A DNA stretch of 64,000 bases from Escherichia phage vB_EcoM_ESCO10. The DNA lies in sequence record OM386655.1; one strand, 5' to 3'. The position numbers were made by a program, and so were the translations under genes. The notes beneath the pieces were generated by a model. That model was given only the letters and a program-made list of their open reading frames with translations, was not told where the DNA came from and searched no databases. Shown piece by piece: positions 23,437 to 53,876 of this stretch; position 1 is the stretch's first letter, and each line of letters begins with the position of its first letter.

Positions 23437-23464
23437 AAACAAAAATGGGACTCCGAAGAGTCCC
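23437..23464 (-). terminator. intrinsic terminator
   Basis: GGGACUC-UUCG-GAGUCCC hairpin followed by UUUUUGUUU on minus strand. Confidence 0.6.
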
Positions 23465-23469
23465 ATAAC

Positions 23470-23631
23470 TTATGCCCGAGGCTTACCAAAACGAGAAGCA
23501 TCGTCGCGGATAACAGCACGAGCCCGACGCATAATCTTCTCAACTGTCTGATTGATACGTGAGTTAGACGCACGCTTGTAACCAGCGCGTTTAGAGGTTC
23601 CGTCAACTACTTTAACTTCTTTCTTAGCCAT
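23470..23631 (-). CDS. small basic protein (53 aa)
   Basis: hand-translated MAKKEVKVVDGTSKRAGYKRASNSRINQTVEKIMRRARAVIRDDASRFGKPRA; below track cutoff. Confidence 0.45.
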   Translation of the reverse strand: MAKKEVKVVDGTSKRAGYKRASNSRINQTVEKIMRRARAVIRDDASRFGKPRA

Positions 23632-23926
23632 TATAAAATCTCTTTAAATGAAAATGCAGGACTTATTGGCATTGCCTGCGCAAGCCCTCGAAGGGAACAT
23701 AGGTTTTGGATATTTAACGACAGGATAACCATAAACCTCGTCATCATACCAACCACGACTTAGACAGATAACCTTTTTCTGACGCGTGATAGTACAAAAT
23801 ACATTCAAGAGGTACACCGTAAAACTGTCGGGGTCTTAAAACTATAATGATTCGCAAATCATTAATAAGACAGTTCGACGGCTCCTCGATTTTCTAGCCG
23901 CACTAAGGTAGCGAATCACCTAAAAC

Positions 23927-24175
23927 TTATTTAAGGGTAATAACAAAATGACGTACTGCTTTACGAGCTGCCGAAGCCAAAGGCTTAGCATATTTCAGTT
24001 CATCTTTTGCTTCCAGTTCAGAAGCCAAAGCTGCCTGGACCGGGTTCAGATGTTTGAAATAACGCAGGATTTCCAGTGCTTCGGCTTCAACATCAATAGA
24101 TGCGCCATAGTTTTCGTGACCGTTGTTCCAAGCGTTGCGTTGCAGTTCAAGAGCGTGATTCAGATGTTTGTTCAT
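23927..24175 (-). CDS. rIII: rIII-like lysis-inhibition accessory protein (by synteny and size)
   Basis: 82-aa ORF immediately downstream of gene 31 as in T4. Confidence 0.5.
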   Translation of the reverse strand: MNKHLNHALELQRNAWNNGHENYGASIDVEAEALEILRYFKHLNPVQAALASELEAKDELKYAKPLASAARKAVRHFVITLK

Positions 24176-24318: not shown

Positions 24319-24326
24319 TATTTATA
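24319..24326 (-). promoter_or_regulatory. possible late promoter TATAAATA upstream of rIII
   Basis: exact match in gap between gene 31 stop and rIII, ~145 nt before rIII ATG. Confidence 0.3.
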
Positions 24327-53432: not shown

Positions 53433-53664
53433 CATGATTTTTCATCCGTACAACATATTCCTGATATATCTCTTCTACTGGTTCCTGGAACTTAAAATCA
53501 GCTCCCAGGAATTCCTCAAAGCACTCCTGCTCACGTGTACGTTGACCTGATACAGTGTTCTCTAAGTTATGACTCATAGCCTTTACCCTTATGTTTCTGT
53601 TTACGAGTTGACTCTTTAAAGTTTTTCTTCTTGTCCTTATGGACAGAAGCCTTATTGAAATCAT
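53413..53664 (-). CDS. hypothetical protein (83 aa or shorter)
   Basis: ORF track. Confidence 0.4.
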   Translation of the reverse strand: MISIRLLSIRTRRKTLKSQLVNRNIRVKAMSHNLENTVSGQRTREQECFEEFLGADFKFQEPVEEIYQEYVVRMKNHVYNLEE

Positions 53665-53678
53665 GCTTAGCTACTAGA

Positions 53679-53876
53679 TTATTCATAATGTGCAATTACC
53701 TCTCTTAAACATCCACCTGTAAGACTGAAACGCTTGGCTACCCCACACTCAATGATATGTTCTGAAAGCATATTCACATCAGTATAACCCAGCTCGACGA
53801 TGAAGTATTTTATAGTTTCCTTATCACGAGAATTTAAACTACTGAAATACTCTGATTTTGAATTAAGAGTCTTCAT
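53679..53876 (-). CDS. hypothetical protein (65 aa)
   Basis: ORF track. Confidence 0.4.
   Translation of the reverse strand: MKTLNSKSEYFSSLNSRDKETIKYFIVELGYTDVNMLSEHIIECGVAKRFSLTGGCLREVIAHYE

What the first reader, a model, noticed from the sequence alone, without database searches (positions are those of the whole stretch)
23632..23926. 295-bp segment without a convincing ORF in an otherwise saturated coding region
Between the 53-aa basic ORF and rIII there is no ORF with a plausible SD on either strand. The segment contains a perfect AT-rich palindrome (AATGATT-CGCA-AATCATT near 23846-23863) and a GC hairpin near 23680. It could encode a small RNA, a regulatory leader, or a degraded cassette.
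Basis: seen in the sequence. Interest (0 to 1): 0.4.

Follow-up and report, generated by a model that had tools for sequence, protein, structure and literature searches.

The report
Structured RNA spacer with antitoxin mimic
The "empty" 295 bases between the T4-type phage genes rIII and 30.9 do not code for protein: they are a conserved stretch of folded RNA that starts with one copy of ToxI, the RNA antitoxin of the bacterial ToxIN suicide defence, so the phage probably carries an RNA decoy against that defence.

Summary
Window 23632-23926 lies between rIII and the 53-aa gp30.9 homologue, both on the minus strand. It has no conserved ORF.

The gap is not junk. It is present in about 775 phage genomes, and its aligned bases are 95-97% identical to T4-type phages, against 82-84% for the flanking genes. 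No promoter or terminator separates rIII from 30.9, so it should be transcribed as an intercistronic spacer.

On the sense strand it is a chain of structured modules:
- D, a solitary ToxI-like unit (23921-23891).
- E, a long hairpin of about 25 bp, with the palindrome at its tip.
- F, a variable segment.
- A, a 44-nt H-type pseudoknot supported by covariation (23742-23699).
- C and G, two hairpins ahead of the 30.9 ribosome-binding site.

Module D matches the 36-nt ToxI repeat found upstream of toxN on E. coli and Pectobacterium plasmids at 29 of 31 aligned bases. It keeps the pseudoknot pairs through compensatory changes and keeps C27/U28.

Best reading: an RNA antitoxin mimic of the PhiTE "pseudo-ToxI" kind, embedded in further RNA modules of unknown function. 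Function was not tested. Neither the unit nor the other modules are annotated, and Rfam matches none of them.

The parts
23927..24175 (-). rIII gene (82 aa). Its stop codon TAA at 23929-23927 marks the 5' edge of the spacer on the RNA.
   Evidence: ORF list. 92-99% identical to annotated rIII of IME08, mogra and others.
24319..24326 (-). T4-type late promoter TATAAATA upstream of rIII. It is a likely source of transcripts that run through the spacer.
   Evidence: Pattern scan. Consensus match only.
23891..23921 (-). Module D: a solitary ToxI-like antitoxin unit, AGGUGAUUCGCUACCUUAGUGCGGCUAGAAA. With its tails it spans about 23925-23889.
   Evidence: This is the only part of the gap that matches plasmids or E. 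coli genomes. The matches are tandem 36-37-nt arrays directly upstream of toxN/abiQ-family toxin genes. Best window alignment to the ToxI consensus scores 45, against 24 +/- 2 (max 28) in shuffles, with 29/31 bases identical. The ToxI pseudoknot pairs are kept with compensatory changes.
23882..23885 (-). An invariant GGAG in AAAUCGAGGAGCC at the 5' foot of hairpin E. This is the sequence motif of T4 RegB endoribonuclease sites.
   Evidence: Pattern scan. Invariant in alignment. Role is inferred only.
23809..23887 (-). Module E: a long irregular hairpin of about 25 bp.
   Evidence: RNAalifold on 14 relatives gives 25 pairs for this element, 6 of them with changes on both sides. Examples are ACUGUU/AACAGU, CCAU/AUGG and AUCGAUU/AAUCGGU in L021. 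Several G-U pairs fix the strand.
23750..23808 (-). Module F: a variable segment. It is deleted in T4-type phages and replaced by a structured RNA of about 140 nt (module B) in VR5-type and other relatives.
   Evidence: Alignments. There is no variation within the group that has it, so there is no structural evidence either way.
23699..23749 (-). Module A: a conserved GUAUGAUG lead (23749-23742) followed by an H-type pseudoknot. S1 is 23742-23736 with 23724-23719. S2 is 23733-23727 with 23705-23699. The A-rich loop GUUAAAUAUCCAA is at 23718-23706.
   Evidence: the count of structure pairs on 27 and then 34 distinct sequences gives 79-80% of cells paired, against 66.5% in shuffles. Covariation is 0.35-0.37 against 0.15 (0/500 shuffles as high), and slid controls reach at most 0.17. 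S1 pairs are never broken (UA19/AU14/GC1 and CG22/GC8/UA4). A covariance model finds one copy in the 64-kb window (74.7 bits, next best 16) and one per related locus.
23685..23695 (-).
   Evidence: Sequence. It is conserved with loop and stem variants (CCCCUUGAGGG, CCUCUUAGAGGG, GCCUUCGAGGC) and sits at different places in relatives. It is single copy in the window.
23656..23679 (-). Module G: the stem-loop GCAGG[CAAUGCCAAUAAGU]CCUGC, just upstream of the 30.9 ribosome-binding site.
   Evidence: By-eye covariation in the alignments: CUGG/CCAG (L032, L022), GGGAGC/GCUCCC (L025), GUGGAG/CUCCAC (L036). Not formally scored. RNAalifold preferred an overlapping alternative pairing.
23629..23645 (-). 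The weak Shine-Dalgarno AAAGAG (23645-23640) and the ATG (23631-23629) of gene 30.9.
   Evidence: Sequence. The start MAK(K/Q) is conserved in 29 distinct homologues.
23445..23466 (-). An intrinsic terminator (9-bp stem, CUUCGG loop, U run) after gene 30.9. It marks the end of the rIII-spacer-30.9 transcription unit.
   Evidence: Terminator scan. Annotated at the same place in ATK48 and NRG-P0074.

Best explanation
The gap is an untranslated, structured intercistronic RNA. It is made whenever rIII is transcribed and ends at the terminator after gene 30.9.

Its first module, directly after the rIII stop codon, is one copy of the ToxI antitoxin RNA of ToxIN type III toxin-antitoxin (abortive-infection) systems. 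These systems are carried on plasmids of E. coli and other enterobacteria.

Proposed mechanism:
1. Phage shut-off of host transcription lets the host's own unstable ToxI decay, which would free the ToxN ribonuclease.
2. The phage transcript supplies a ToxI look-alike pseudoknot.
3. ToxN can bind it, and probably trim it at the flanking A-rich sites.
4. This keeps ToxN inhibited, as shown for the 'pseudo-ToxI' of Pectobacterium phage PhiTE.

The remaining modules are conserved RNA structures whose function is unknown. They are long hairpin E, pseudoknot A, and hairpins C and G. The most likely roles are processing and stability signals or a translational leader for 30.9, or possibly further decoys.

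Shown here: non-coding status, conservation, the RNA helices, homology of module D to genuine ToxI, and retention of its fold and contact bases.

Inferred: transcription, processing, ToxN binding and any protective effect.
For: Non-coding and conserved. No conserved ORF, and single-base indels occur among near-identical relatives. The gap is more conserved than the flanking genes. It is present in 775 phage records.

One transcription unit. There is no sigma-70, T4 early or T4 middle promoter in the gap, and no terminator between rIII and 30.9. A late promoter lies upstream of rIII and a strong terminator after 30.9.

Sense-strand RNA. Many G-U pairs occur in the supported helices.

ToxI identity.
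- blastn of the gap against 72,556 plasmids and 5,426 E. coli genomes hits only bases 3-47 of the sense strand.
- The hits are always on plasmids, in tandem arrays, immediately upstream of and co-oriented with genes annotated 'type III toxin-antitoxin system ToxN/AbiQ family toxin'.
- The alignment to the pTA113-2 ToxI consensus scores about 10 sd above shuffles.
- The pseudoknot pairs are 97.6% kept across phage units and genuine ToxI, with compensatory U9C/A25G and G10A/C24U.

Literature (PMC3475682). In single-repeat ToxI constructs, the changes U-1C, U9C+A25G, UUU->UU and an extra 3' A did not impair antitoxin activity. C27G or U28A abolished it. The window unit carries U9C+A25G, a shortened loop and the extra 3' A, but keeps C27 and U28.

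Other support. ToxIN from enterobacteria aborts T4-type phages (PMC5449768, PMC9391042), so the selective pressure exists. The unit comes and goes among close relatives: it is absent from RB69, replaced in IME08 and degenerate in T4. That is as expected for an arms-race accessory.
Against: - There is only one unit. Bacterial ToxI arrays have 1.9-13 repeats.
- PhiTE wild type, with 1.5 repeats, is not protected and had to expand them (PMC3475682).
- The 5' tail differs (UUUU instead of AUUC), and the nearest AAAU site on the 5' side is 5 nt further out than in ToxI.
- The L3 loop is 2 nt shorter than in ToxI. Only a 1-nt shortening was tested in the literature.
- No expanded array was seen in any T4-type locus.
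- T4 is sensitive to ToxIN despite having a (degenerate) unit, and RB69, which is less sensitive, has no unit (PMC9391042). So the unit is neither necessary nor, in T4's form, sufficient.
- There are no expression data.
- The other 250 nt are not explained by this mechanism.
Confidence: 0.55

Rival explanations
1. The ToxI-like unit is a relic. It would be the remains of an old recombination with a toxIN plasmid (as in PhiTE-F) or of a decayed array, now carried passively. The spacer would be conserved for other reasons.
For: The unit is solitary. It has a non-canonical 5' tail and a shortened loop. T4's version has a broken S1 pair. It is absent from RB69 with no obvious consequence. PhiTE wild type, with 1.5 repeats, is inactive (PMC3475682).
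Against: At least 73 phage records keep a unit that is at least 95% identical to the window's. Its substitutions relative to ToxI are compensatory or fall at positions shown to be neutral, while C27/U28 are intact (PMC3475682). Similar solitary units recur independently in unrelated phage types, which argues for selection.
Confidence: 0.22
2. The spacer is mainly a cis-acting mRNA element. Hairpins and the pseudoknot would act as processing sites (RNase III-type for hairpin E, RegB at GGAG), as barriers that stabilise rIII and 30.9 messages, and as a translational leader. That leader might be bound by the very basic 30.9 protein, by analogy with the gene 32 pseudoknot. The ToxI-like unit would be incidental.
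For: Modules A, C and G always lie upstream of 30.9 on the same strand across genera. Distant relatives have an anti-SD/SD hairpin UCUCC...GGAAGA at the 30.9 start. The GGAG is invariant. More distant phages that lack these modules have an ordinary terminator-promoter junction instead (L039, L085).
Against: The module order is shuffled: A lies before D and B in the Klebsiella and Enterobacter phages and after them in the window. That is odd for a leader that depends on distance. 30.9-like genes exist without the modules (L085). In phi92-like phages the modules were kept without 30.9. There is no experimental link to RegB, RNase III or gp30.9.
Confidence: 0.3
3. The gap encodes one or more small proteins, as annotated in some relatives: 33- and 37-aa ORFs in NRG-P0074, a 42-aa ORF in PTE-Eco05, and an N-terminally extended 30.9 in a T4 record.
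For: ORFs of 25-57 codons are open in the window. A peptide-like frame YDDEVYGYPVVKYPKP recurs in several genera. One ORF ends in a TAATG overlap with the 30.9 start.
Against: - There is no ATG plus SD.
- There is no Pfam or PHROG family.
- Frames are broken by 1-nt indels in phages 97-99% identical and by stops at varying places.
- The first and eighth 'codons' of the peptide-like frame are always reverse complements (GAC/GUC, GUC/GAC, GUG/CAC), and L027-type phages keep the helices while losing the frame. That is an RNA-pairing signature.
Confidence: 0.03
4. The gap is a DNA-level element: a promoter-terminator (PeSL) recombination cassette, a replication origin repeat or an endonuclease site.
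For: ATK48 annotates a 10-bp 'ori type 2 repeat' next to the 30.9 start. The region is mosaic among relatives. PeSL cassettes are known in T4-type phages (PMC4122927).
Against: No promoter or terminator consensus occurs in the gap. Only one relaxed early-like match was found (23824-23796), and it is not conserved in T4. The helices contain G-U pairs, which would be A-C mismatches on the other strand. The modules are single copy in 64 kb, unlike dispersed PeSLs.
Confidence: 0.03

Closest known systems
ToxI, the RNA antitoxin of ToxIN type III toxin-antitoxin / abortive-infection systems (P. atrosepticum pECA1039; E. coli plasmids such as pTA113-2)
   Same: Module D shares 29 of 31 aligned bases with the 36-nt repeat. 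It has the same H-type pseudoknot pairs (G2-C15...G5-U12; U9-A25, G10-C24, C11-G23) with compensatory substitutions. It keeps the GCUAG segment that contains the ToxN-contact bases C27/U28, and it has an A-rich 3' boundary.
   Different: It is a single unit, not a tandem array. There is no toxN gene and no terminator next to it. It sits in a phage mRNA spacer. Its loop is 2 nt shorter, its 5' tail is UUUU instead of AUUC, and it has one extra 3' A.
Pseudo-ToxI of Pectobacterium phage PhiTE (Blower et al. 2012, PMC3475682)
   Same: Both are phage-encoded ToxI look-alikes that are not linked to toxN and lie in a non-coding stretch near structured RNAs. Both share the U9C/A25G pair and the extra 3' A. 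Both are present at low copy number in the wild type.
   Different: PhiTE is an rV5-like phage. It has 1.5 repeats carrying the inactivating GGACG (C27G/U28A) version, and it needs expansion to work. The window unit is a T4-type phage element at a fixed locus (rIII-30.9). It has the canonical GCUAG but only 1.0 repeat, and no expanded variants were seen.
Autoregulatory H-type pseudoknot in the gene 32 mRNA leader of T2/T4/T6 (recalled from established literature, not tested here)
   Same: Both are H-type pseudoknots in an untranslated leader of a T-even phage gene, conserved among relatives.
   Different: There is no sequence similarity. Module A is larger (6-bp S1, 4-7-bp S2, 13-nt A-rich loop). 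Its distance to the 30.9 start varies from about 70 to over 250 nt. No binding protein is known.
Longer type III antitoxins (CptI, TenpI) and the pistol ribozyme
   Same: Module A is an H-type pseudoknot with a very short L1 and a long A-rich loop, in a unit of about 50 nt. TenpI repeats average 50.9 nt, and tenpIN aborts T4-type phages (PMC3401426, PMC5449768, PMC5086642). Pistol ribozymes also pair a hairpin loop with a downstream segment after a ...CGUUAAAUA-like linker (sequence recalled from memory).
   Different: No sequence match to any plasmid, E. coli genome or bacterial species representative was found. No TenpI or CptI sequence was available to compare. The Rfam Pistol model gives no hit even at E up to 10. 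These are resemblances only.
Solitary repeat units used by phages as RNA anti-CRISPRs (recalled from established literature, not tested here)
   Same: The concept is the same: a phage carries a single copy of a host defence system's repeat RNA to titrate the protein partner.
   Different: The defence system and the RNA are different. The analogy is conceptual.

Membership tests
ToxI antitoxin RNA (ToxIN family) | Sequence similarity to the 36-nt ToxI repeat | tested here: met
   29/31 aligned bases are identical to the pTA113-2 consensus. The score is 45 against 24 +/- 2 in 40 dinucleotide shuffles. blastn hits to toxI arrays were found on 61 plasmids.
ToxI antitoxin RNA (ToxIN family) | H-type pseudoknot pairings of ToxI are maintained | tested here: met
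   97.6% of cells are paired across 18 phage and bacterial units. Three pairs show compensatory changes. Slid controls reach at most 63%. The S2 pairs are confirmed by PMC3475682; the S1 assignment is from memory of the crystal structure.
ToxI antitoxin RNA (ToxIN family) | ToxN-contact nucleotides C27 and U28 are present | tested here: met
   The window has GCGGCUAGAAA. C27G or U28A abolish activity (PMC3475682).
ToxI antitoxin RNA (ToxIN family) | Tandem array of at least 1.9 repeats | tested here: not met
   There is one unit, followed only by AAAAUCGAGGAG, which resembles the start of a further unit.
ToxI antitoxin RNA (ToxIN family) | Followed by a terminator and a toxN/abiQ-family toxin gene | tested here: not met
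   The neighbours are rIII and gp30.9. The genuine arrays in L088-L090 do have toxN downstream.
ToxI antitoxin RNA (ToxIN family) | ToxN cleavage sites (AA^AU / GAAAU) at both unit boundaries | tested here: inconclusive
   The 3' boundary GAAAAU contains AAAU but not GAAAU. The 5' AAAU overlaps the rIII stop codon, 5 nt further out than in ToxI (motif from PMC10853763).
Phage pseudo-ToxI (PhiTE type antitoxin mimic) | ToxI-like sequence in a phage genome, not linked to toxN | tested here: met
   PhiTE's own locus was recovered by the same searches and is annotated 'pseudo-ToxI'.
Phage pseudo-ToxI (PhiTE type antitoxin mimic) | Expressed during infection and suppresses ToxN-mediated abortive infection | not testable with these tools
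   Only inferred, from its position inside the rIII-30.9 transcription unit.
H-type RNA pseudoknot (module A) | Two helices, with the loop of the first pairing downstream, both supported by covariation | tested here: met
   S1 has 88% of cells paired, and 4 of its 6 pairs show double changes. S2 has 72% paired, and 4 of its 7 pairs show double changes. Loop lengths of 2, 2 and 13 nt fit the geometry.
Any Rfam family (riboswitch, ribozyme, leader, sRNA) | Covariance-model match | tested here: not met
   There is no relevant match at E up to 10 in the window region (one chance snoRNA hit at E 9.5 outside the gap), and none at E up to 1 in 13 related loci.
PeSL promoter-terminator cassette of T4-type phages | Early promoter (TTTACW-N17-TAYWAT) followed by a stem-loop terminator | tested here: not met
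   No match in the gap. Consensus taken from PMC4122927.

The most novel reading that the evidence does not exclude
The whole rIII-30.9 spacer of enterobacterial T4-type phages is an RNA-based counter-defence island. It would be a string of exchangeable, independently folding decoy RNAs cut out of the rIII transcript. The members would be the solitary ToxI mimic, pseudoknot A (perhaps a mimic of a longer, TenpI-like antitoxin or of another RNA partner of a defence nuclease), and the 140-nt module B in relatives. Each would neutralise a different host RNA-dependent defence. That would explain why modules are gained, lost and reordered between phages while each is kept almost invariant.
Probability: 0.15. 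Interest if true: 0.85.

Novelty: new variant of a known kind. Interest (0 to 1): 0.62.

Why it matters
T4 and its relatives are the reference phages for work on ToxIN. The papers read here describe a protein counter-defence (TifA) in T4-type phages and an RNA mimic only in the unrelated phage PhiTE.

A conserved, unannotated ToxI look-alike at a fixed locus in many Mosigvirus, Dhakavirus-like and other T4-type phages, with the contact bases intact, gives a directly testable second route of escape. It may help explain differences in ToxIN sensitivity between phages. Similar solitary units appear in T5-like, Vibrio and other phages.

The same spacer holds at least two further covariation-supported RNA structures that no database describes: pseudoknot A, and module B in relatives. 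Since T4-type genomes are otherwise densely coding, these are good candidates for new phage regulatory or anti-defence RNAs.

In practice, the small ORFs that some genome records annotate here are probably spurious.

Tried and rejected
- **Rfam and tRNA scans.** Rfam on the window region and on 13 related loci gave nothing. A control showed Rfam lacks a ToxI model. The tRNA/tmRNA scan of the window found none.
- **Thermodynamic folding** of the whole gap gave z = -0.56, which is not informative.
- **Promoter and terminator scans** for sigma-70, T4 early, middle and late found none inside the gap.
- **Small-ORF hypothesis.** The peptide-like frame in module A looked like synonymous variation at first. 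I rejected it because the 'codons' covary as reverse complements and the frame is broken in close relatives.
- **'Two copies of module A in some phages'** was an alignment artefact. The covariance model finds exactly one per locus.
- **Dispersed-repeat idea.** Modules A, C and D are single copy in the 64-kb window.
- **A bacterial original of module A.** blastn against plasmids and E. coli genomes found none. A degenerate pattern scan of 185,579 species genomes gave 11 hits, all chance (at most 18 bits against at least 48 for real copies). Module A is also absent from other phage types that carry ToxI-like units.
- **A bacterial original of module B.** None found.
- **RB69 as a test case.** RB69 is reported as less ToxIN-sensitive, so I checked it. 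It lacks the ToxI-like unit, so that correlation fails.
- **TenpI/CptI sequences.** The supplement of PMC3401426 is not held, so I could not compare them.
- **Pistol-ribozyme resemblance.** The architecture is partly similar, but there is no model hit and I found no P2/P3 equivalent, so I dropped it.
- **Literature on rIII/30.9 transcription.** Only a citation to a 2003 Biologija paper that is not held.

Full report
**Context.** The window comes from a T4-type myovirus (Straboviridae); in this region its closest records are Mosigvirus and Dhakavirus phages. Genes around the finding are on the minus strand in the T4 order 31 - rIII - 30.9 - 30.8. rIII is 23927-24175. The '53-aa basic ORF' is the gp30.9 homologue at 23470-23631 (phrog_1427, function unknown). 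The 295 bases between them are the finding.

**Observation check.** The palindrome AATGATT-CGCA-AATCATT is at 23846-23863 and the GC hairpin CCCTCGAAGGG at 23685-23695, as described. Open frames of 25-57 codons exist. None has an ATG with a Shine-Dalgarno on the gene strand, and none matches Pfam or PHROGs. Phages 97-99% identical in this stretch differ by single-base indels inside these frames, and the frames stop at different points. A peptide-like frame in the 30.9-proximal part (YDDEVYGYPVVKYPKP) briefly looked coding. However, its first and eighth codons are always reverse complements (GAC/GUC, GUC/GAC, GUG/CAC), and one phage group keeps the pairings while losing the frame. That is RNA pairing, not protein.

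**Conservation.** The gap matches 775 phage records, 579 of them over at least 80% of its length. Against T4-type phages its aligned bases are 95.5-96.6% identical, while rIII is 82.5% and 30.9 is 84% identical at the DNA level. The rIII-30.9 spacer varies between 135 and 437 nt among 43 loci and is clearly modular. More distant T4-like phages have an ordinary terminator-promoter junction instead (L039, L085).

**Transcription context (inferred).** No sigma-70, T4 early or T4 middle promoter and no terminator lies in the gap. A late promoter TATAAATA lies upstream of rIII (24326-24319), and a strong CUUCGG terminator follows 30.9 (23466-23445). The gap should therefore be an intercistronic part of rIII-30.9 transcripts.

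**Anatomy on the sense (minus) strand, 5' to 3'.**
- D, 23921-23891: a ToxI-like unit.
- An invariant GGAG, 23885-23882.
RNAalifold on 14 relatives gives 25 pairs, 6 of them with changes on both sides, plus many G-U pairs.
- F, 23808-23750: variable, deleted in T4, and replaced by another structured RNA in some relatives.
- A, 23749-23699: GUAUGAUG followed by an H-type pseudoknot.
- C, 23695-23685: the hairpin CCCUUCGAGGG.
- G, 23679-23656: a stem-loop with by-eye covariation (CUGG/CCAG, GGGAGC/GCUCCC, GUGGAG/CUCCAC).
- A weak SD and the 30.9 ATG.

**The pseudoknot.**
- S1 is GAC-g-AGG with CCU-GUC. S2 is (UAU)GGUU with AACC(UAU). L1 is 2 nt, L2 is 2 nt, and L3 is GUUAAAUAUCCAA.
- On 27 sequences, and again on a model-made alignment of 34 distinct sequences, 79-80% of cells pair, against 66.5% in shuffles. 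The covariation score is 0.35-0.37 against 0.15 (0 of 500 shuffles as high), and versions slid by 1-3 columns reach at most 0.17.
- Two S1 pairs never break while switching between three pair types.
- A covariance model finds exactly one copy in the 64-kb window (74.7 bits, next best 16) and one per related locus.
- Its position varies. It lies after D-E-F in the window but directly after rIII, before D and B, in Klebsiella and Enterobacter phages.
- Rfam has nothing.

**The ToxI-like unit.** I recognised module D from memory of the ToxI repeat and then tested the match.
- blastn of the gap against 72,556 plasmids and 5,426 complete E. coli genomes hits only sense-strand bases 3-47. The hits are always on plasmids, with several places per record.
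- In the three records examined, the hits are tandem arrays directly upstream of, and co-oriented with, genes annotated 'type III toxin-antitoxin system ToxN/AbiQ family toxin'.
- The arrays are 36 nt x 5.6 (AGGTGATTTGCTACCTTTAAGTGCAGCTAGAAATTT, E. coli pTA113-2), 37 nt x 13.1 (P. atrosepticum pPA21A) and 36 nt x 4 (pU90-1).
- The best alignment of that consensus anywhere in the window is 23921-23891 on the minus strand. It scores 45, against 24 +/- 2 (max 28) in shuffles, with 29 of 31 aligned bases identical and a 2-nt loop deletion.
- The two substitutions inside the fold, U9C and A25G, are a compensatory pair.
- Across 18 phage units and genuine ToxI repeats, the ToxI pseudoknot pairs are 97.6% kept, with three covarying pairs.
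- Published mutagenesis of single ToxI repeats found U9C+A25G, UUU->UU and an extra 3' A to be neutral. C27G or U28A abolished activity (PMC3475682). The window unit has the neutral changes and keeps C27/U28.

**Distribution.**
- At least 99 phage records carry such a unit, 73 of them at least 95% identical to the window's. The unit is unannotated in all the listed records but PhiTE's, which label it 'pseudo-ToxI'.
- It is absent from RB69 and some Dhakavirus-like phages, replaced by other sequence in IME08, and degenerate in T4, where one S1 pair is broken.
- Solitary or 1.5-copy ToxI-like units also occur in unrelated phages: T5-like Klebsiella and Salmonella phages, Vibrio JSF12, Bas88 and several metagenomic contigs.
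- The papers I could read describe the RNA mimic only for PhiTE (PMC3475682, PMC5449768). Those on T4 and ToxIN describe the protein TifA and do not mention a toxI-like sequence.

**Most likely mechanism.** The rIII transcript supplies a ToxI look-alike that binds, and is perhaps trimmed by, ToxN once host ToxI decays after transcription shut-off. This would blunt abortive infection.
- Against it: there is one unit only, with a non-canonical 5' tail and a shorter loop. PhiTE needed expansion to be protected. T4 is sensitive to ToxIN, and RB69, which is less sensitive, has no unit.
- My estimates: about 0.9 that D is a true ToxI homologue in a non-coding structured RNA, and about 0.45 that it gives measurable protection in nature.
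- The other modules are unexplained. The leading ideas are processing and stability or a translational leader (E as an RNase III-type hairpin, GGAG as a RegB site, A/C/G as a leader for the basic 30.9 protein), or further decoys. Their reordering between phages, and their retention in phi92-like phages without 30.9, fit independent units better than a distance-dependent leader.

**Comparison with known systems.** Module D meets the sequence, fold and contact-base criteria of ToxI. It fails the criteria of a bacterial toxI locus, which are a tandem array and an adjacent toxN. It therefore belongs with the phage 'pseudo-ToxI' mimic, as a new variant: solitary, canonical GCUAG, at a fixed locus in T4-type phages. 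Module A is an H-type pseudoknot with no family. Its resemblances to the gene 32 pseudoknot, to long type III antitoxins and to pistol ribozymes are architectural only.

**Verdict.** The finding is real and more interesting than first scored. The region is not a decayed cassette in this phage but a conserved string of RNA structures. One of them is recognisable as an antitoxin mimic, and the others are undescribed. Function remains to be shown.

Noticed in passing
L007 2386-2520, L025 2368-2502, L086 about 1165-1300, and 16 other related loci (not in the window; it replaces window segment about 23750-23808): A conserved structured RNA of about 140 nt ('module B', CGGCAAGUGCAUGC...GGUGUGCAACAGAUAAGAG) sits in the same rIII-30.9 spacer of many relatives. 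RNAalifold gives 45 pairs, 22 with compensatory changes. There is no Rfam family and no match in plasmids or E. coli genomes.
   Followed up: partly
L045 1790-2140, L046, L087 (phage phi92 FR775895.2 about 53,490-53,830): phi92-like phages (Justusliebigvirus, unrelated to T4) carry a T4-type copy of modules D-E-A-C-G, followed by the 30.9 start codon fused to the last 27 codons of rIII. It is inserted between tRNA-Gly and tRNA-Gln at a shared 13-mer TTTATTGGAGATT. Other phi92-like phages lack the insert. This looks like a circular-permuted piece acquired by recombination.
   Followed up: partly
L092, L093/L095/L104/L105, L099, L100, L101, L102; phage records H314-H320, H324: Solitary ToxI-like units lie in non-coding stretches of diverse non-T4 phages: T5-like Klebsiella and Salmonella phages, Vibrio phage JSF12, E. 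coli phage Bas88, and metagenomic contigs. Some sit right after a promoter or just before a terminator. All are unannotated.
   Followed up: partly
L088 1197-1672 (P. atrosepticum 21A plasmid pPA21A): This toxIN locus has an unusually long antitoxin array of 13.1 repeats. The repeats carry the GGGACG variant, the same variant as the PhiTE pseudo-ToxI and not the canonical GCUAG.
   Followed up: no
L029 2407-3033 (contig of 162,101 bp; size and sequence match Yersinia phage vB_YenM_TG1): The first 16 codons of 30.9 are fused to an unrelated ORF, giving 208 aa in all. The upstream RNA modules (C, A, D and a further stem) are kept.
   Followed up: no
L006 1200-1425 (NRG-P0074), L003 1764-1892 (PTE-Eco05), L005 1024-1242 (T4 mutant record): Public records annotate small ORFs inside the spacer, or extend 30.9 to 72 aa. 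These frames are not conserved and are probably annotation artefacts. The conserved 30.9 start is MAK(K/Q).
   Followed up: yes
window 23796-23824 (minus strand): This is the only relaxed early-promoter-like match in the gap (TTTTAC-N17-TATTTT). Its -10 part is deleted in T4, so it is probably not functional.
   Followed up: partly
L001 about 2240-2305 on the sense strand (IME08, in place of module D): IME08-type phages have a different 65-nt insert (AGTGGATGTTGGCAGGTACCTCCACTATAATATGATACCTGCTTG...) where the window has the ToxI-like unit. It was not analysed.
   Followed up: no
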